The notes beneath the pieces were generated by a model. That model was not told the DNA's origin. It searched no databases and was given only the letters and a program-made list of their open reading frames with translations. From Candidatus Yonathbacteria bacterium (GTDB lineage Bacteria > Patescibacteriota > Minisyncoccia > Phycocordibacterales > UBA1550), in the NCBI GenBank assembly GCA_016215205.1, contig JACRKU010000005.1:1-38516 (forward strand): DNA of 38,516 nucleotides, read 5' to 3'. Below are positions 4,399 to 37,452 of this stretch, one piece after another; position 1 is the stretch's first letter, and every line of letters starts with the position of its first letter. A program made the position numbers and the translations under genes.

Positions 4399-5077
4399 AC
4401 AACGCGTATTTGCCTGTAGAGTCATCACGAATAATCTTCCCATGATCCATCGTAATAACACGCTTGCCGAGCGCCTCCACAACCCCTTTGTTATGTGTGG
4501 TCAAAATAACCGTCGTCCCCATATCATTGATTTTCTTCAAAATTTGGACGATTTCGTAGGTGTTAATCGGGTCAAGGTTTCCCGTTGGTTCGTCGGCGAT
4601 AATGAGGTCCGGGTGGTTCACAATAGCGCGCGCGATGGCAACACGCTGGAGCTCACCGCCACTAAGCTGCCGCGGGAAATTCCACATTTTTTGAGAAAGA
4701 TCGACGAGTTCGAGCACATGCGGCACGTCGGAAGCGATTTCTTCTTCTGTTTTTCCGGCGACCTCCATGGCAAACGCCACATTTTCGTATGCAGTCTTGT
4801 TTGGAAGAAGACGGAAGTCTTGAAAAATAATACCGATGCGGCGGCGAAGCTCCGGCATGTCATGCGCTTTCACTTTTTGGATATCAACAGAGTCAAAAGA
4901 CACACTGCCATCCGTGGCAGAATCCTCCCCCAGGAGAAGTTTTACCAATGTGGTCTTTCCTGCACCTGAGTGTCCGACAATAGACACAAATTCTCCCTGC
5001 TTTACAGAAAGTGTTACACCATTCAAAGCTACAGTGCCGTCGGGATAGGATTTTGAAACATTGTCGAAGTAAATCAT
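4397..5077 (-). CDS. ftsE: Cell division ATP-binding protein FtsE
   Basis: [47 protein letters not shown]. Confidence 0.95.
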
Positions 5078-5120
5078 TCTCCTACTTTAACAAATTTTTA
5101 TACATCTGGGAAATCTTTCA

Positions 5121-6005
5121 TCAAAGATTCTTTTCCGCTTCAATGAACGGCATTATTTCGCCATCTTCGAGTACGGCGTCCACATTACTCGTCTCGACAC
5201 CCGTGCGGTGATCCTTTACCATTTTGTACGGATGAATGACATACGAGCGAATCTGGTTCCCCCATTCTATCTCGGTCGTCTTCGAGATATACATTCCGCT
5301 CTCTGCGGCTTTTCTTTCTTCGTCCTGCTTCTTAAAAAGTTTGCCTTTCAAAATTTGCACCGCTTTTTTGCGGTTTTGTTCTTGTGAACGCTCGGTCTCC
5401 ACATGCACGGCAATCCCCGCGGGGATATGCACCACGCGCACGGCGGTCTCCCTCTTGTTCACGTTTTGACCGCCGGGACCGGATGAACGGCTAAACTCAA
5501 CCCTGATGTCGTCCGCGGGAATAACGATTTCATCATTTGCGCCATCTTTGAAATCCGGAATAATTTCCACCATTGAAAACGAAGTATGGCGAAGTTTTTT
5601 TGCATTGAATGGAGAAATGCGCACAAGGCGATGCACCCCGGACTCATTTTTGAGCATGCCGTACGCATTCTTGCCGTGAATCTCGACAGTGATGTTCCTA
5701 TAGCCGCCGTGGTCATTTTTATTTTCGTGGAGAAGCTTCGTTTCAAAATTCTGTTTTTCAAAAAACTTGAGGTACATAGTGAGAAGCATGCTCGAAAAAT
5801 CCTCAGCATCGTCGCCGCCCGCTCCGGAGAAAATGGTCATCACTGCATTACCGCGATCATACTTGCCCACACCGGCAATTTTTTCTTTGAGGTCGGCAAT
5901 TTCTTTTATGACCGCCTGCGCATGTATTTTGTCAGACCAAAAGTCGCCAGAGACCATCTCGGCTTCAAGCTCTGTGATTTTTGCGTGCATTTCTTCTTTT
6001 GTCAT
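5121..6005 (-). CDS. prfB: Peptide chain release factor 2, shortened N-terminal domain
   Basis: GVHRLVRISPF (RF2 SPF motif), RHTSF, GPGGQNVNK, WGNQIRSY. Confidence 0.92.
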   Translation of the reverse strand: MTKEEMHAKITELEAEMVSGDFWSDKIHAQAVIKEIADLKEKIAGVGKYDRGNAVMTIFSGAGGDDAEDFSSMLLTMYLKFFEKQNFETKLLHENKNDHGGYRNITVEIHGKNAYGMLKNESGVHRLVRISPFNAKKLRHTSFSMVEIIPDFKDGANDEIVIPADDIRVEFSRSSGPGGQNVNKRETAVRVVHIPAGIAVHVETERSQEQNRKKAVQILKGKLFKKQDEERKAAESGMYISKTTEIEWGNQIRSYVIHPYKMVKDHRTGVETSNVDAVLEDGEIMPFIEAEKNL

Positions 6006-6018
6006 TTTGGTCAGTATA

Positions 6019-6048
6019 ACAAAAATACCGCGTCCGCGGTATTTTTGT
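6019..6048. terminator. Bidirectional-type terminator after tRNA-Thr(CGT)
   Basis: ACAAAAATACCGCG-TC-CGCGGTATTTTTGT, perfect 14-bp arms. Confidence 0.75.
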
Positions 6049-6054
6049 AAGTTG

Positions 6055-6127
6055 AGCCAACCCCGGGAATTGAACCCGGAACCTACGGTTTACGATACCG
6101 TTGCTCTACCAGTTGAGCTAGGTCGGC
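6055..6127 (-). tRNA. tRNA-Thr(CGT)
   Basis: Acceptor GCCGACC/GGTTGGC, anticodon arm ACGGT-AT-CGT-AA-ACCGT, T loop TTCAATT; CCA not encoded. Confidence 0.93.
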
Positions 6128-6585
6128 TTGTATTTTCTTTGGTAGGGGACAAATAAACGTGCTTCTACTGCCCTTTTACTGCCTGCACGACTATTTCTTC
6201 CTTTTCCCTTATTTAGTGCTGCGTATGTTGATGAAAGTGCATCACAATTTGGGCAAACAAGTCTCAAATTACTTTCCTTGTTATTGCGCCAGTTGCCGTC
6301 AATATGATCAGCGACTAAGGGAACTTGCCCAGTCACAATGTTCACATTAGACCACGAACATAGAACGCACTTATTGCTGTACTTCTCACGCAGGTACCTT
6401 TTAACATGCGTTGAAACTGTACCAAGGCGAGACAATCCACTCTGCCTACCTTCCTTCCAGTTTATAATATACGATTCGTGCTGGTACGCAAGCTGGCAGA
6501 CATTACTGCAATATTTGTATCCTGCGCGAGCTGGCTCCTTCCCGCAGTTTAAACATCTACCATTTAATTTTTTTGCCTTAGGCAC
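6118..6585 (-). CDS. Free-standing HNH endonuclease with zinc-finger motifs
   Basis: CLNC, YCSNVC, CVLC, DHIDGNWRNNKESNLRLVCPNCD; GTG start 6 nt after TATAAT; the stop codon lies inside tRNA-Thr(CGT). Confidence 0.88.
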   Translation of the reverse strand: MPKAKKLNGRCLNCGKEPARAGYKYCSNVCQLAYQHESYIINWKEGRQSGLSRLGTVSTHVKRYLREKYSNKCVLCSWSNVNIVTGQVPLVADHIDGNWRNNKESNLRLVCPNCDALSSTYAALNKGKGRNSRAGSKRAVEARLFVPYQRKYKPT

Positions 6586-6653
6586 GTTTCAATTATATAT
6601 TGAATGCAGACCTAAATCAAATCTAAAAGTGGTCGTTCTTTAACCAACACTTG

Positions 6654-6726
6654 AGCCGATGTCCGGGATTGAACCGGAGACCTCGTCCTTACCAAGGACG
6701 CACTCTACCAACTGAGCTACATCGGC
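6654..6726 (-). tRNA. tRNA-Thr(GGT)
   Basis: Acceptor GCCGATG/CATCGGC, anticodon arm CGTCC-TT-GGT-AA-GGACG. Confidence 0.95.
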
Positions 6727-6877
6727 TTATCTACATTGCTTACCTACCAAGACAGCTACATCGGCTTTAACGATATCTCGACACGATACACTATTTAATA
6801 CATTCTTTCAATACAAGTGAAGCAGTTCACTTGTATTGACCGCGCAAAATTAAAAGCCCTTTTGGGCTTTAATTTTG

Positions 6878-6952
6878 CGCGGTCGATGGGATTTGAACCC
6901 ACGATCTCTTCCGTGACAGGGAAGCGCTTTGGACCAGCTAAGCTACGACCGC
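6878..6952 (-). tRNA. tRNA-Asp(GTC)
   Basis: Acceptor GCGGTCG/CGACCGC with G73, anticodon arm CTTCC-CT-GTC-AC-GGAAG. Confidence 0.95.
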
Positions 6953-7629
6953 ATATTATTTAATTTATCATATTTCTCAAACACAACCTTCTTCCTTTCA
7001 AGAAAAATGCTGTCCTCAATATGGCTCCCATGATTATACATAAAATCGTATAATTTCAAAGTATCACATGTTCCAAATTGCAGACGATAACAATTCTCCT
7101 TTATTATATAAATTGAACCACCTCCAAAATCGTGCGTAGCGAGCCTTTCGAGAATACTCTCCAAAAATACTTTTGAGCATGAAGTGAGCGCTGCCTGAAT
7201 TGCAAAATGTCGTATTTTTCGCTTTTTGTGGGTTATCCCAGACCATACATTCCCATCCCCATCAAAATACCCACGTATGAAGTCGGAAAAATATTTCTTT
7301 GGAACATTCGGCACTGCCATGCTTTTTGTTTTTCGTTCCGAGAATCCAAGTCTTCTTAGGTCCTCGCACATTTCAATACTTCCTATTTGCAGACGATAGA
7401 GAGTACTTTCATTCTCTCTCATAATACGTGTGCTTATCTTATGTTCTGATTGAATAGCATTTCGTATTTGTTTAAGAAGTTTTTTGTCGGTAATTTGAAT
7501 GCACCAAAATTGTCCGCCGCGCTTATTAACGGTAATGTATCCGTCAGCAGCAAAGAAGCCGAGAACGTATGCCATTTCTGGCGACCATTTTTTAAAGAAA
7601 CTTTTATTTACTTTTTTAAGTACGGGCAC
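6943..7629 (-). CDS. Free-standing two-motif LAGLIDADG endonuclease
   Basis: AYVLGFFAADG and FIRGYFDGDG motifs; AT-rich; GTG start 6 nt after TATAAT; the stop codon lies inside tRNA-Asp. Confidence 0.88.
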   Translation of the reverse strand: MPVLKKVNKSFFKKWSPEMAYVLGFFAADGYITVNKRGGQFWCIQITDKKLLKQIRNAIQSEHKISTRIMRENESTLYRLQIGSIEMCEDLRRLGFSERKTKSMAVPNVPKKYFSDFIRGYFDGDGNVWSGITHKKRKIRHFAIQAALTSCSKVFLESILERLATHDFGGGSIYIIKENCYRLQFGTCDTLKLYDFMYNHGSHIEDSIFLERKKVVFEKYDKLNNMRS

Positions 7630-7688
7630 AAAAACATTATATCACGTGACAGGAGATTATACTAACCAAAAACTCCACATTCTAATAG

Positions 7689-7760
7689 TGCCGATGAGTG
7701 GAATCGAACCACTGTCTAGGGCTTATGAGTCCCTCGTTCTGACCATTGAACTACACCGGC
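7689..7760 (-). tRNA. tRNA-Met(CAT), probably elongator
   Basis: Acceptor GCCGGTG/CATCGGC, loop CTCATAA, paired G1-C72; A31-G39 mismatch. Confidence 0.85.
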
Positions 7761-7801
7761 TTTTAAAGCCAAATTTTTTACTAACTTAGTTTAACTCAAT
7801 T

Positions 7802-7852
7802 ACGATGATTACAAAAATGCCGACAATTGCCGGCATTTTTGTAATTTATCGT
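7802..7852. terminator. Hairpin/terminator after the initiator tRNA
   Basis: ATTACAAAAATGCCG ... CGGCATTTTTGTAAT arms with flanking ACGAT/ATCGT. Confidence 0.7.
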
Positions 7853-7853
7853 G

Positions 7854-7924
7854 TTGCGGGGGCCCGAATCGAACGGGCGTCTTCAGGTTATGAGCCTGAT
7901 GAGATACCGCTTCTCTACCCCGCT
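7854..7924 (-). tRNA. Initiator tRNA-fMet(CAT)
   Basis: AGCGGGG/CCCCGCA with a 1:72 mismatch, purine11-pyrimidine24 D-stem GAGA/TCTC, arm TCAGG-CTCATAA-CCTGA. Confidence 0.88.
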
Positions 7925-7939
7925 ATTCTATAGAGGCCA

Positions 7940-7967
7940 ATTTTACCATCTCTATAGGATTTTGCAA
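7940..7967 (-). promoter_or_regulatory. Promoter of the tRNA cluster
   Basis: TTGCAA-16 nt-TAAAAT with a TG extension; CTATAGAG/CTCTATAG inverted repeat flanks the -10. Confidence 0.55.
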
Positions 7968-8023
7968 GAGGTACGGGGCGGGCGAGAAGCGCTCATTCCA
8001 TCTTCCAAATTCTACATTCCACC

Positions 8024-8677
8024 CTAAAGATACCCAAGCTCTTTGAAAGCATTCCCGAATTTTGCGATAGTGTCTCGCGCGAGTTTTTTCGACATGTCCA
8101 TATCAATGGCTCCGCCGTGCGCAATCTGATTGCGCATTTTGTGCGCATCCCAAATATCGTCATAAGAAGCTATCTTCGTGCGACTCATTGTTTTTAATTT
8201 ATCGGCAAGCGTTTCTCCGGCGTATCCTTGGTCTTCGAGTATCTCGTCAAGAATGTTGTCAGCCTCAAGAATTGCGAGTTTCCACTCCGCCGGACTCTCG
8301 GAATTTACATGGTCCAACACAACCTGCCACTGCACGAATTTTTCTTTTGCGGCAATTTCCTCAAGGTGTATTGGTTCATATTTTTCGTGTTCTTTATGAT
8401 GAATTTCTCGTATTTTTAATGTCGCAAAAAAAGTGCCGGCGAGGAAGGCAACTCCCAAAACCGCGAGCGCGCTTTGAATAGAAAGAAAAAAGTTTTTAAT
8501 CGCAAGTATTGGCACTTTGCTCAAAAGGAGAGCTTTCAATGTTTCAGGTGCTTCACCTGAAGCCACTGTCTCAACATTGAGAGGAGTGATGTTGGTGGAT
8601 ACATAAATGATGAGCGCAATTCCAAGAACGATAGCGACATCGCGAATTATTGTGTCTGCTACAGGGTGGTCTTCCAT
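8024..8677 (-). CDS. Hypothetical membrane protein with a helical C-terminal domain
   Basis: Two hydrophobic segments, then WKLAILEADNILD...GETLADKLK...WDAHKMRNQIAH; 3 nt after the gatA stop. Confidence 0.75.
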   Translation of the reverse strand: MEDHPVADTIIRDVAIVLGIALIIYVSTNITPLNVETVASGEAPETLKALLLSKVPILAIKNFFLSIQSALAVLGVAFLAGTFFATLKIREIHHKEHEKYEPIHLEEIAAKEKFVQWQVVLDHVNSESPAEWKLAILEADNILDEILEDQGYAGETLADKLKTMSRTKIASYDDIWDAHKMRNQIAHGGAIDMDMSKKLARDTIAKFGNAFKELGYL

Positions 8678-8680
8678 ATA

Positions 8681-10114
8681 TTAAATACTAACGCCACCGC
8701 GCGCTTTTTCAAAATCCTTGCCCACCGCAAAGAGCGCGTCTTCTCCAAAGTGCGGCGCGATAAATTGAATGCCGAGCGGGAGTTTTGAACCATTCTCTTC
8801 TGCAAAGCCGGAGGGGATTGAAATAGCGGGAACACCGGCAATATTTACCGGCACGGTAAAAATATCAGCGAGATACATTTGTAGCGGGTCATTCGACTTT
8901 TCGCCAATCTTAAATGCCGGTGTTGGCGTGGTGGGTGTTGCAATAATATCCACGCCTTCAAATGCTTTCTCAATATCCCTTTTTAGAGTTTCACGTACGG
9001 CGCATGCGCGACCATAGTACGCATCGTAGTAGCCCGAAGAAAGCACATAAGTACCGAGAAGGATTCTGCGGCGCACCTCGCGCCCAAACCCCTCCCCGCG
9101 CGAACGCATGTAGTCATCAAGAAGATTTACGCCATCTGCATGATAACCGTAACGCACACCATCCAGTCGCGCGAGATTTGAGGACACTTCGGCGGGCATT
9201 AAAATATAGTAAACGGAAAGTCCGTGCGCAAAGGGCGGAAGAGAAATCTCGCGCACTTCATATCCCGATTTTTTCATTTGCTCAAGAGATTCTTCAAAAT
9301 TTTTCAAAACGCGCGGGTCCACCCCTCTTGCCCGCACAAACTCGGTGGGCACACCGATAACTCTGGGCTTTTTGAAATCTTTTTTTGAAAGATTATCTGG
9401 GTATGATGTACTGTCCATCGGATCATGCCCCTTTATGCAATCAAAAATAATTTCTGCATCCTCTACTGTTTTTGCAAAAGGGCCGGCCTGATCAAGTGAG
9501 CTTGCCATCGCAATAAGACCAGAACGCGACACACTGCCGTAAGTGGGTTTAAGTCCGACAACTCCACAAAAAGACGCAGGCTGGCGAATGGACCCGCCGG
9601 TATCGGTGCCAAGTGCCCCGAGAGCCGCCCCTGCCGCAAGCGCTGCCGCCGAGCCGCCTGACGAGCCGCCTGGCACACGCGTTTTATCGTGCGGATTTTT
9701 CGTCACCCCGAAGAAAGACGTTTCCGTTGAGCCACCCATTGCGAACTCGTCCATGTTCGTGCGACCGATAAATATCACTCCGGCTTCGCGGAGTTTTTTT
9801 GTAACAAAAGCATCGTAGGTAGCAACATAATTTTCGAGCATCTTTGATGACGCGCTCGCTGTTCTGCCTTTGATTAAAATGTTGTCTTTCATCGCAAGCG
9901 GAATCCCCGTCATCATTGTCGAACGACCTTCGTCAATCATTTTTTGCGCAACGAACGCCTGCGCGCGCATGTCTGGAAAAATTTCAAGGTATGCGTTGAG
10001 GTCGCGCGAATCCTTTGCAATTTCCAACACTGACTCCGCAAGCTCAAGCACGCTCACTTTTTTTGCAATGAGAAGTTCATGCGCCTCTCTGATGGTGAGA
10101 TTTTTGATGTCCAT
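8681..10114 (-). CDS. gatA: Asp/Glu-tRNA amidotransferase subunit A
   Basis: KDNI, NMDEFAMG, PGGSSGGSAA, GTDTGGSIRQPA, EVSSNLARLDGVRYG, GTYVLSSGYYDAYY. Confidence 0.97.
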   Translation of the reverse strand: MDIKNLTIREAHELLIAKKVSVLELAESVLEIAKDSRDLNAYLEIFPDMRAQAFVAQKMIDEGRSTMMTGIPLAMKDNILIKGRTASASSKMLENYVATYDAFVTKKLREAGVIFIGRTNMDEFAMGGSTETSFFGVTKNPHDKTRVPGGSSGGSAAALAAGAALGALGTDTGGSIRQPASFCGVVGLKPTYGSVSRSGLIAMASSLDQAGPFAKTVEDAEIIFDCIKGHDPMDSTSYPDNLSKKDFKKPRVIGVPTEFVRARGVDPRVLKNFEESLEQMKKSGYEVREISLPPFAHGLSVYYILMPAEVSSNLARLDGVRYGYHADGVNLLDDYMRSRGEGFGREVRRRILLGTYVLSSGYYDAYYGRACAVRETLKRDIEKAFEGVDIIATPTTPTPAFKIGEKSNDPLQMYLADIFTVPVNIAGVPAISIPSGFAEENGSKLPLGIQFIAPHFGEDALFAVGKDFEKARGGVSI

Positions 10115-30912: not shown

Positions 30913-30948
30913 AGACCGCGGAGATATATGGTATTTTTAAATTCTTTG

Positions 30949-31022
30949 TCCGTCCACCAGGACTCGAACCTGGGACCGCAGAGATATAAGCTCTGTGCTC
31001 TAACCAACTGAGCTATGGACGG
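30949..31022 (-). tRNA. tRNA-Ile(TAT)
   Basis: Acceptor CCGTCCA/TGGACGG with A73, D arm GCTC/GAGC, arm CAGAG-CT-TAT-AT-CTCTG, T arm CCAGG-TTCGAGT-CCTGG. Confidence 0.92.
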
Positions 31023-36847: not shown

Positions 36848-37263
36848 GGGGATGATCGGCCTAGACAGGCGGTCAACTCTGGTCAGTGCTATGCCGAGAA
36901 TGTTCAAGACCTCGTTAAATCTTGAATACACAAGTATGTGCAAAAAACACACTTGCAAAAGCTAAGGCTATCGTATCACCATACTTTGGTGCTAACGCCT
37001 TCGCTCCTGCTTACGCTCTCGTAGCCTAAACAGCATTCACATTCAGTACGCCCTCTAGGGAATCGTGGGTGATATAAAAAGAGGGCTCATCATTTGGAAT
37101 GACTCTACCAAATGAAAAAACAAAGAGTATCGGTTGTGTATGATTTGGAATACTTTATACATACACTCCTTAAATTAAGCCTAGCTTAAAAATAAGTATT
37201 CTACGCATAGTAGACTCTAGCCAGAACATCGTCTGCACGGGGGTTCGATTCCCCCCATCTCCA
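36848..37263 (+). ncRNA. ssrA: tmRNA
   Basis: 5' GGGGATG pairs with 3' CATCTCC-A (G3-U70); T arm GGGGG-TTCGATT-CCCCC; directly follows smpB; contains a tag ORF. Confidence 0.93.
36940..37029 (+). other. tmRNA tag reading frame AKNTLAKAKAIVSPYFGANAFAPAYALVA*
   Basis: GCA resume codon after AGTATGT; ends YALVA-TAA. Confidence 0.75.
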
Positions 37264-37452
37264 CAAGTCGCACCGCCCAAAGACGCATGTCTTTGGGCGG
37301 TTTGCGATTGTGTGAGATGTGGGGAATCGAAAAGCGCAGGCGGGCACACTGTGTACTCACAGGGTCGCCGAGCTGGGGTCGCGAACACTTTGTATTTTGT
37401 GAGTAATCGAAACAAAATACTTAGTGATTCGTGACCGATGAACCCCATCTCC
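37264..37452 (+). repeat. tRNA-anchored structured element, copy 2 (on tmRNA)
   Basis: Antisense copy of the tmRNA 3' end ending at 37331; direct repeat CCCCATCTCC 37253-37262 = 37443-37452; core shared with copy 1. Confidence 0.75.

What the first reader, a model, noticed from the sequence alone, without database searches (positions are those of the whole stretch)
6055..7629. Two unrelated endonuclease genes each use U8-A9-G10 of the downstream tRNA as their stop codon
Seen: the HNH gene ends AA|G CCG ACC TAG, where GCCGACCTAG is nt 1-10 of tRNA-Thr(CGT). The LAGLIDADG gene ends AT|G CGG TCG TAG, where GCGGTCGTAG is nt 1-10 of tRNA-Asp. Both are AT-rich with the same layout: TATAAT, 6 nt, GTG, ORF, tRNA. 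Established: RNase P cuts before tRNA nt 1, and non-stop mRNAs are rescued by tmRNA-SmpB, which tags the product for proteolysis. Inference: tRNA maturation would remove the stop codon and limit expression of a toxic nuclease, while the nuclease promoter drives the tRNA. This would be a convergent nuclease-as-tRNA-leader strategy for selfish genes. Caveat: an ORF that runs into a tRNA has about a 1-in-3 chance of meeting this UAG in frame.
Basis: partly seen in the sequence, partly recalled or inferred. Interest (0 to 1): 0.82.

Follow-up and report, generated by a model that had tools for sequence, protein, structure and literature searches.

The report
Homing endonuclease genes wedged against tRNAs
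Two selfish nuclease genes have inserted into the spacers of a tRNA gene array so tightly that each borrows its stop codon from the next tRNA, a layout that recurs in many related bacteria and some phages, although the exact 10-base overlap looks like a by-product of reading frame.

Summary
The HNH ORF (6118-6585, -) and the LAGLIDADG ORF (6943-7629, -) both end in TAG at nt 8-10 of tRNA-Thr(CGT) and tRNA-Asp. Each starts at a GTG 6 nt after a TATAAT box. A third endonuclease gene in the same genome (contig C14) runs 22 nt into tRNA-Ser(CGA).

Same-order relatives have short empty spacers at both sites, so these are insertions. I examined 84 homologous loci from three 401-genome searches. In 67 the ORF ends beside a same-strand tRNA 5' end, and in 44 the stop lies inside the tRNA. 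Overlaps range from 1 to 124 nt in all three frames (21/11/12). Only 7 are exactly 10 nt, and 4 of those belong to one HNH/tRNA-Thr(CGT) clade.

The "nuclease in the tRNA leader" layout is therefore real, widespread and convergent. It also occurs in phage tRNA arrays. The U8-A9-G10 stop is not specifically enriched.

Best reading: free-standing homing endonuclease genes that home on tRNA genes. In one same-genus pair the adjacent tRNA was replaced together with the nuclease gene. The RNase P/tmRNA attenuation idea remains untested; I found no usable RNA data.

Novelty: a new variant of a known kind (endonuclease genes in tRNA clusters, such as T4 SegB and T5 hegA).

The parts
7853..7924 (-). 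tRNA-Met(CAT), first gene of the array
   Evidence: ARAGORN; Rfam tRNA 60 bits
7688..7760 (-). tRNA-Met(CAT), upstream neighbour of the LAGLIDADG insertion
   Evidence: In same-order relatives this tRNA is followed by tRNA-Asp after 19-68 nt.
7636..7644 (-). Extended -10 promoter-like box TGaTATAAT, 6 nt before the GTG start of the LAGLIDADG ORF (leaderless layout)
   Evidence: Read from the sequence. The same box-6 nt-start spacing occurs in homologs. The consensus scan did not list it because it has no good -35.
6943..7629 (-). LAGLIDADG homing endonuclease gene (228 aa, two motifs: ...FFAADGYI and ...YFDGDGNV). The last 10 nt, including TAG, are tRNA-Asp nt 1-10.
   Evidence: PF14528, 50.2 bits; phrog_4645, E 1e-39; homologs
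6877..6952 (-). tRNA-Asp(GTC); its nt 8-10 (6945..6943) serve as the stop codon of the LAGLIDADG ORF
   Evidence: 71 bits
6810..6884 (-). Two tandem strong hairpins directly after tRNA-Asp (the first includes the last 8 nt of the tRNA). Probable 3' end of the LAGLIDADG-tRNA-Asp unit.
   Evidence: fold, (-48.2 kcal/mol, z -10.6); terminator-like hit
6754..6765 (-). 12-nt copy of the 5' end of tRNA-Thr(GGT) (GCCGATGTAGCT), 28 nt upstream of the real gene. Possible repair scar.
   Evidence: Read from the sequence; not shown to be more than chance
6653..6726 (-). tRNA-Thr(GGT), upstream neighbour of the HNH insertion
   Evidence: In relative G143, Thr(GGT) and Thr(CGT) are 43 nt apart.
6592..6620 (-). 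Sigma-70-like promoter TTGATT-17-TATAAT, 6 nt before the GTG start of the HNH ORF
   Evidence: 10 of 12 matches
6118..6585 (-). HNH homing endonuclease gene (155 aa; ...DHIDGNWRNN...LVCPNCD...). The last 10 nt, including TAG, are tRNA-Thr(CGT) nt 1-10.
6054..6127 (-). tRNA-Thr(CGT); its nt 8-10 (6120..6118) serve as the stop codon of the HNH ORF
   Evidence: 65 bits

Best explanation
These are two free-standing homing endonuclease genes (one HNH, one LAGLIDADG), each inserted into an inter-tRNA spacer of a conserved array: Met-Met-Asp-Thr(GGT)-Thr(CGT). Each forms a compact unit of its own -10 promoter, a leaderless ORF starting about 7 nt after the box, and the next tRNA gene, with no room for a private stop codon. 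The flush position against the tRNA 5' end is a heritable trait of whole endonuclease lineages in this phylum and in some phages.

Inferred: the enzymes use the conserved tRNA gene as target and/or homology arm. The 5' leader is a safe harbour because RNase P trims it off. The tightest possible linkage keeps the nuclease gene together with a cleavage-resistant tRNA allele during gene conversion. The ORF then simply runs on until the first in-frame stop inside the tRNA. In the frame where tRNA nt 1 is codon position 3, that stop is U8-A9-G10. The identical 10-nt overlap of the two genes is therefore a frame coincidence on top of a real shared architecture.

Shown: the insertions, the patchy distribution, the flush layout, the frame spread, and one case where the tRNA was replaced along with the nuclease gene. 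Inferred: the target site, the immunity of the linked allele, co-transcription and RNase P processing.
For: 1. Insertion. Same-order relatives have Met-Asp spacers of 68 and 19 nt and a Thr(GGT)-Thr(CGT) spacer of 43 nt, against 735 and 525 nt here.
2. Patchiness. The families occur in 37, 33 and 31 of 401 phylum genomes. None of 12 other tRNA-Thr(CGT) loci in the class has the HNH gene. GC is 0.37-0.43 against 0.46 for the genome.
3. Family trait. In 67 of 84 homologous loci the ORF ends next to a same-strand tRNA 5' end (Asp, Cys, Leu, Phe / Thr, Leu / Ser, Tyr, Gln). In 44 the stop is inside the tRNA and in 10 it lies 0-5 nt before it. All three such genes in this genome overlap a tRNA, and no ordinary gene does.
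4. Frame. Overlaps fall in all three frames, 21/11/12.
5. Same-genus filled/empty pairs. In G310 vs G177, homology resumes exactly at tRNA nt 1. In G350 vs G270 it resumes at nt -1. There the adjacent tRNA-Phe is only 84% identical, with compensatory stem changes, while the next four tRNAs are about 99-100% identical. That indicates co-conversion or joint transfer of the nuclease gene and the tRNA.
6. Phage relatives sit in tRNA arrays. A cyanophage HNH overlaps tRNA-Val by 10 nt, an Enterococcus phage HNH overlaps tRNA-Thr by 15 nt, and IMG/VR loci overlap by 10 and 19 nt.
7. Precedent. T4 SegB cuts tRNA genes and spreads with its neighbouring tRNA genes (PMC2330249, abstract and passages).
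8. No intron RNA family was found in 5000-9000.
Against: No cleavage site is known for any of these enzymes, so the tRNA gene as target is an inference from position. In the second same-genus pair (G310/G177) the tRNA differs by only 1 nt, so joint replacement of the tRNA is not general. The window's tRNA-Thr(CGT) is 93-96% identical to that of HNH-free class members, so it looks native rather than imported. 17 of 84 homologous loci are not next to a tRNA 5' end. T5 hegA and two other phage HNH genes follow tRNAs rather than abutting the next one. The excess of stops inside the tRNA (44) over stops before it (23) could reflect selection for the overlap, which this reading treats as neutral. 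The -65..+130 counting window was chosen after seeing the data, the loci are related to one another, and only the best 30 places of 47, 36 and 34 were examined.
Confidence: 0.65

Rival explanations
1. The stop codon is placed inside the tRNA on purpose. RNase P cleavage at tRNA nt 1 removes it, later ribosomes stall on a non-stop mRNA, and tmRNA-SmpB tags the nuclease for degradation. Only a small amount of a potentially toxic enzyme is then made (perhaps only in the first, co-transcriptional round), while the nuclease promoter feeds the tRNA.
For: The stop lies beyond the RNase P site in 44 of 67 tRNA-linked homologs, in three lineages and two folds. There is a promoter directly before each ORF, and no terminator or convincing promoter between ORF and tRNA in the window. 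A tmRNA gene and an RNase P RNA candidate (94 bits, below the 100-bit cut-off) are present. The tRNA-Asp concerned is the only one outside the doubtful contig C6, so the co-transcript must be processed.
Against: 23 of 67 linked homologs stop before tRNA nt 1 (10 of them 0-5 nt before), so the feature is dispensable. There is no preference for the 10-nt frame. Several linked tRNAs have a TATAAT box of their own inside the ORF's 3' end (sequences printed). There is no RNA evidence. In the literature searches none of the listed titles or abstracts described RNase P-generated non-stop mRNAs as a control device.
Confidence: 0.18
2. Domesticated or decaying remnants. The nuclease ORFs no longer act as mobile elements and persist because their promoters now drive essential tRNAs. 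The overlap is a frozen accident.
For: In the window the tRNAs have no convincing promoter of their own. Several homologs are broken (6 loci with short open frames; stops inside matches).
Against: Both window ORFs are intact with their catalytic motifs, and most homologs have no internal stop. The patchy distribution across families and the replaced tRNA-Phe point to ongoing mobility.
Confidence: 0.1
3. Chance or artefact: mis-called tRNA boundaries or spurious ORFs.
For: An ORF that enters a tRNA has about a 1-in-3 chance of hitting nt 8-10, and 22 of 39 tRNAs here read TAG there.
Against: Two programs agree on both tRNA 5' ends. Both ORFs have family matches. The layout recurs in dozens of genomes.
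Confidence: 0.02

Closest known systems
Phage T4 SegB (GIY-YIG free-standing homing endonuclease in the tRNA gene cluster)
   Same: A free-standing endonuclease gene between tRNA genes. The enzyme recognises a conserved tRNA-gene element and spreads its own gene together with neighbouring tRNA genes (PMC2330249, abstract and passages). The replaced tRNA-Phe in G350 fits the same behaviour.
   Different: Different folds (HNH, LAGLIDADG). The host is a small-genome bacterium, not a phage. The ORF is flush with, and overlaps, the 5' end of the next tRNA. In the passages I read there was no mention of an ORF-tRNA overlap for segB.
Phage T5 hegA / F-TflIV and other phage HNH genes in tRNA regions
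   Same: Sequence relatives of the window's HNH over the catalytic half (44.6% over residues 73-128), located in the T5 tRNA region. Relatives in a Streptomyces phage and a Klebsiella phage lie right after tRNA-Thr genes.
   Different: In those three phages the gene follows tRNAs and is followed by CDSs, not abutted to a downstream tRNA. The flush and overlapping form was seen in a cyanophage, an Enterococcus phage and 2 of 8 IMG/VR loci, where two of the genes are not even annotated.
HNH genes linked to long tRNA arrays in cyanobacteria (all8564) and mycobacteria
   Same: A homing-type HNH gene conserved beside or inside horizontally spreading tRNA arrays (PMC8421152 and PMC6582537, passages).
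   Different: Those genes were described as neighbours of arrays. The passages I read gave no ORF-tRNA overlap, no leaderless layout and no LAGLIDADG counterpart.
LAGLIDADG genes in rRNA introns and insertion sequences of CPR bacteria
   Same: The same phylum and the same enzyme family invading conserved RNA genes (PMC11270868 and PMC8172020, passages).
   Different: Those sit inside rRNA genes within introns. Here the genes are free-standing in the tRNA 5' leader, with RNase P trimming inferred to play the part that splicing plays for an intron. The word 'tRNA' does not occur in the main text of PMC11270868.
Mitochondrial tRNA punctuation with overlapping or incomplete stop codons
   Same: A protein-coding frame ends at or inside a tRNA that is cut out of a common transcript.
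   Different: This comparison is recalled from general knowledge and was not checked in any call. It concerns organelles and housekeeping genes, not selfish nuclease genes.

Membership tests
LAGLIDADG homing endonuclease | Two LAGLIDADG motifs, each with a conserved acidic residue, in a single chain; match to the family profile | tested here: met
   PF14528 at 50.2 bits (cut-off 22.5), plus a weak PF00961 match over the second half. Motifs FFAADGYI and YFDGDGNV are in the translation. phrog_4645 E 1e-39.
HNH endonuclease | His-Asn-His/Asn beta-beta-alpha-metal motif with flanking Cys pairs; match to the family profile | tested here: inconclusive
   The window protein scores 20.4 bits on PF13392, below the 24.8 cut-off. 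It matches six PHROG HNH families, the best at E 1.5e-14. Homologs at 40-47% identity over the catalytic half pass PF01844 and PF13392. The last motif position is Asp (CPNCD) where most homologs have His.
Free-standing homing endonuclease gene (mobile element) | Presence/absence polymorphism at the same site in related genomes | tested here: met
   Empty spacers in same-order relatives. 0 of 12 other Thr(CGT) loci hold the HNH gene. Same-genus filled/empty pairs.
Free-standing homing endonuclease gene (mobile element) | Not inside an intron or intein | tested here: met
   No group I or II intron family at E up to 1 in 5000-9000. The ORFs lie between complete tRNA genes.
Free-standing homing endonuclease gene (mobile element) | Site-specific cleavage of the empty allele and co-conversion of flanks | not testable with these tools
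   Only indirect evidence: tRNA-Phe was replaced next to the insertion in G350 vs G270.
   The components exist: tmRNA and an RNase P RNA candidate at 94 bits. No RNA run holds the organism.
   44 of 67 stops are inside the tRNA, 23 are before it, and only 7 overlaps are exactly 10 nt. Frames split 21/11/12.

The most novel reading that the evidence does not exclude
The overlap is functional. In these promoter / leaderless ORF / tRNA units, only ribosomes that follow the polymerase closely, before the tRNA has folded, reach the stop codon. Once RNase P frees the tRNA, the remaining mRNA has no stop and its product is tagged by tmRNA. tRNA maturation would then set a ceiling on nuclease output. 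HNH and LAGLIDADG elements in CPR bacteria and phages would have reached this attenuator convergently.
Probability: 0.15. Interest if true: 0.8.

Novelty: new variant of a known kind. Interest (0 to 1): 0.55.

Why it matters
Homing endonuclease genes in phage and bacterial tRNA clusters are known. This window points to something more regular. At least three endonuclease lineages of two unrelated folds occupy the 5' leader of tRNA genes as self-contained promoter / leaderless ORF / tRNA units, usually with the stop codon inside the tRNA. They occur in roughly 8-9% of sampled genomes of a large uncultured phylum and in some phages.

This has three consequences:
- It flags a class of genes that annotation pipelines tend to drop. 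The HNH genes were unannotated in two phage records.
- It suggests that tRNA genes are gene-drive targets whose alleles can be swapped between lineages.
- It offers a clean natural system for testing whether RNase P processing and ribosome rescue limit expression of a selfish nuclease.

Tried and rejected
1. Insertion inside the tRNA, with the element rebuilding tRNA nt 1-10. I scanned 70 linked loci for a second copy of the first 16 tRNA bases (up to 2 mismatches) within 1.3 kb upstream. There were 0 hits, and 0 in the reversed-query control. Rejected as a general rule. Isolated 5' fragments do exist (window 6754-6765, L040, L095).

2. RNA evidence. The look-up of sequencing runs found one DNA run holding the stretch (share 0.80). 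All RNA runs held 0.05 or less. Read laying on X1, X2, X3 and X19 gave only contigs, mostly of other organisms matching the tRNAs. One RNA-library contig and one DNA contig of relatives join 7062 to 7689. That would be a relative keeping only the last ~120 nt of the LAGLIDADG ORF next to tRNA-Asp, but the sides are only 28-30 nt at 85% likeness, so I draw nothing from it. No 3' ends could be mapped.

3. Contig C6 as an empty-site allele of this array. Its tRNAs are too different from the window's, so it is probably a co-binned relative. I used same-order genomes instead.

4. G256 vs G284. These are too diverged (72%), and the tRNA-Tyr is inverted. Not analysed further.

5. ORFs of 132 and 135 aa reading into tRNA-Thr(CGT) in L097 and L108. 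They have no HNH similarity, and by eye their translations look like non-coding frames. I did not scan them against any protein family.

6. LAGLIDADG relatives in phages. They are 28-32% identical and no tRNA is annotated under the listed matches. Not followed.

7. PDB sequence search for the LAGLIDADG protein. Only a weak match to an mRNA maturase (E 0.005). It adds nothing.

8. Literature. Searches found no paper describing endonuclease ORFs overlapping tRNA 5' ends or tRNA-leader endonuclease genes in CPR/Patescibacteria. Supplements were closed and may hold gene maps I could not see.

Full report
**What is there.** On the minus strand the window carries a tRNA array:
- tRNA-Met (7924..7853)
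- tRNA-Met (7760..7688)
- tRNA-Asp (6952..6877)
- tRNA-Thr(GGT) (6726..6653)
- tRNA-Thr(CGT) (6127..6054)

A release-factor-like gene follows. Two ORFs fill two of the spacers. One is 7629..6943 (228 aa), which matches LAGLIDADG_3 at 50.2 bits and phrog_4645 at E 1e-39. The other is 6585..6118 (155 aa). It has only a sub-threshold HNH_3 match, but it matches PHROG HNH families at E 1.5e-14, and its homologs pass the HNH cut-offs.

Both start at a GTG 6 nt after a TATAAT box. The HNH promoter scores 10 of 12. The LAGLIDADG promoter has an extended -10, TGaTATAAT. Two strong hairpins follow tRNA-Asp, so LAGLIDADG plus tRNA-Asp looks like one unit.

**Is it more than chance?** The exact stop position is not. 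22 of the genome's 39 tRNAs read TAG at nt 8-10, so any ORF entering in that frame must stop there. The reach into the tRNA is more than chance. Across all 39 tRNAs, the only ORFs of 100 aa or more that overlap a same-strand tRNA are these two, a third on contig C14, and one spurious ORF on C6. All other upstream ORFs end at least 23 nt before the tRNA. The C14 gene is a second LAGLIDADG gene (PF14528 at 56.7 bits). It runs 22 nt into tRNA-Ser(CGA) in the same frame, and it reads on to nt 20-22 only because that tRNA has TGC at nt 8-10. So all three endonuclease genes of these families in the genome overlap a tRNA.

**They are insertions.** Same-order relatives carry the same array with short spacers. 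Met-Asp is 68 nt in G178 and 19 nt in G284. Thr(GGT)-Thr(CGT) is 43 nt in G143. None of 12 other tRNA-Thr(CGT) loci in a 101-genome class sample has the HNH gene. The families occur in 37, 33 and 31 of 401 sampled phylum genomes, scattered over many families. GC is 0.37-0.43 against 0.46 for the genome. No intron RNA family matches the region.

**The layout is a family trait.** I analysed the 30 best-scoring places of each phylum search (of 47, 36 and 34 listed). I removed the own-genome loci and three duplicates, leaving 84 loci.
- In 67, the ORF stop lies within -65..+130 nt of nt 1 of a same-strand tRNA. I chose that window after seeing the data.
- In 44, the stop is inside the tRNA.
- In 10, the stop lies 0-5 nt before the tRNA.
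- In 13, it lies further upstream.

The linked tRNAs are Asp, Cys, Leu and Phe for the first LAGLIDADG lineage, Thr and Leu for HNH, and Ser, Tyr and Gln for the second LAGLIDADG lineage. These loci are related to each other, so the counts are descriptive rather than a test.

**The 10-nt overlap is not special.** The overlaps seen are 1, 10, 11, 13-16, 18, 21, 23, 36, 39, 44 and a few longer. By frame they split 21/11/12, the last being the frame that can use nt 8-10. Only 7 overlaps are exactly 10 nt. Four of those are close HNH relatives (59-65% identity) in front of tRNA-Thr(CGT) in four different families. One of the four uses TAA, because that genus has A10 in this tRNA whether or not the HNH gene is present. 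Of 17 linked tRNAs with a stop triplet at nt 8-10, 7 use it, where about 6 would be expected.

**Leaderless units.** A -10-like hexamer lies 4-9 nt before an in-frame start in 31 of 80 intact ORFs, and in 23 of these the spacing is exactly 6 nt. In the own genome, 26 of 598 long ORFs have such a box at 6 nt before the first start. The two tests are not identical, because for the endonuclease genes I accepted any early in-frame start. Several homologs also have a TATAAT box of their own just upstream of the tRNA, inside the ORF's 3' end (sequences). The window's two tRNAs do not.

**How they move.** Two same-genus filled/empty pairs are informative.
- G310 (HNH + Thr(CGT)) vs G177 (109-nt spacer): similarity resumes exactly at tRNA nt 1.
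- G350 (LAGLIDADG + tRNA-Phe) vs G270: similarity resumes at nt -1. The tRNA-Phe is only 84% identical, with compensatory changes in three stems, whereas the next four tRNAs are about 99-100% identical. Identity returns right after the tRNA's 3' end.

In the second pair the nuclease gene and its tRNA arrived together. That is what co-conversion after a break in or near the resident tRNA gene would give, and what T4 SegB does in phage crosses (PMC2330249). In the first pair the tRNA differs by one base, so joint replacement is not universal. The window's own tRNA-Thr(CGT) looks native: it is 93-96% identical to HNH-free class members.

**Beyond this phylum.** The HNH protein has relatives in 193 phage records. 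These include T5 hegA/TflIV in the T5 tRNA region and genes next to tRNA-Thr genes in Klebsiella and Streptomyces phages. In those three the gene follows tRNAs and is not flush with the next one. The flush form does occur in phages:
- An unannotated HNH ORF in Synechococcus phage RN05-S ends with TAG at nt 8-10 of tRNA-Val.
- One in Enterococcus phage iF6 ends 15 nt into tRNA-Thr.
- Among 8 IMG/VR loci the overlaps are 10 and 19 nt, two stops lie 5 nt before a tRNA, one lies 40 nt before, and three are not adjacent.

**Mechanism.** My best reading (0.65) is that these are homing endonuclease genes specialised on tRNA genes. The tRNA supplies a conserved target and homology arm. The 5' leader is harmless to occupy because it is trimmed off. 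Extreme proximity keeps the gene linked to its tRNA allele. The ORF ends at whatever stop the tRNA offers.

Two thirds of linked homologs do have the stop beyond the RNase P site, and the window's units have no other promoter for the tRNA. One third do not, however, and I have no RNA data. Domesticated remnants (0.10) and artefact (0.02) are less likely.

**Novelty.** Endonuclease genes in tRNA clusters are in print: T4 SegB; HNH genes beside cyanobacterial and mycobacterial tRNA arrays (PMC8421152, PMC6582537, passages). LAGLIDADG genes in CPR rRNA introns are also in print (PMC11270868, PMC8172020, passages). In six full-text searches I found no description of the flush, overlapping, leaderless unit in tRNA leaders, nor of LAGLIDADG lineages doing this in CPR bacteria. 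I rate it a new variant of a known kind.

Noticed in passing
own genome, contig C14:23049-23936 (-), with tRNA-Ser(CGA) at C14:22983-23070 (locus L001/L064): A third endonuclease gene (LAGLIDADG, up to 295-aa open frame) runs 22 nt into tRNA-Ser(CGA) in the same frame as the two in the window. Its homologs sit before tRNA-Ser, Tyr and Gln genes across the phylum.
   Followed up: yes
own genome, contig C6:~250-520 (minus strand): A sequence like the window's tRNA-Met (7688-7760) is split in its anticodon region by about 140 nt. The insert contains a complete second tRNA-Met flanked by a 10-nt inverted repeat (CACACCAATT...AATTGGTGTG). It could be a disrupted gene or an unusual nested or split tRNA. 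C6 repeats the Met-Met-Asp-Thr(GGT) array with different sequences and may come from a co-binned relative.
   Followed up: partly
window 6754-6765 (-); also L040 and L095: Short copies of tRNA 5' ends lie upstream of complete tRNA-Thr genes. There are 12 nt in the window, 28 nt in L040 between an HNH gene and its tRNA, and 19 nt of a Thr(GGT)-like 5' end before Thr(CGT) in L095. These may be scars of breaks in the D-arm region. A systematic scan found none in 70 other loci.
   Followed up: partly
L027 (G350) vs L134 (G270): Next to the LAGLIDADG insertion the upstream tRNA-Ile is 100% identical but inverted relative to the empty allele. A further 486-nt segment is present only in G350.
   Followed up: no
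window 30948-31022 (-): tRNA-Ile with anticodon TAT, an isoacceptor that I recall as uncommon in bacteria. PMC6582537 mentions one inside a horizontally acquired mycobacterial tRNA cluster that also carries an HNH gene.
   Followed up: no
whole own genome: Only 26 of 598 long ORFs have a GGAG/GAGG/AGGA word 5-16 nt before the first start codon, and -10-like boxes peak at 6 nt before starts. This hints at little Shine-Dalgarno use and a share of leaderless genes. It is a crude count on unfiltered ORFs.
   Followed up: no
window 36848-37264 (+): tmRNA gene with a long predicted tag of 29 residues ending ...YALVA.
   Followed up: no
L085, L086, L087, L089, L028: A subgroup of LAGLIDADG homologs begins immediately after, or overlapping, the 3' part of tRNA-Leu(CAA) instead of abutting a downstream tRNA.
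   Followed up: no
phage records PV261924.1 (109631-110100) and MT909815.1 (41038-41501): Intact HNH ORFs between tRNA genes are not annotated in these records, probably because they overlap the next tRNA.
   Followed up: partly
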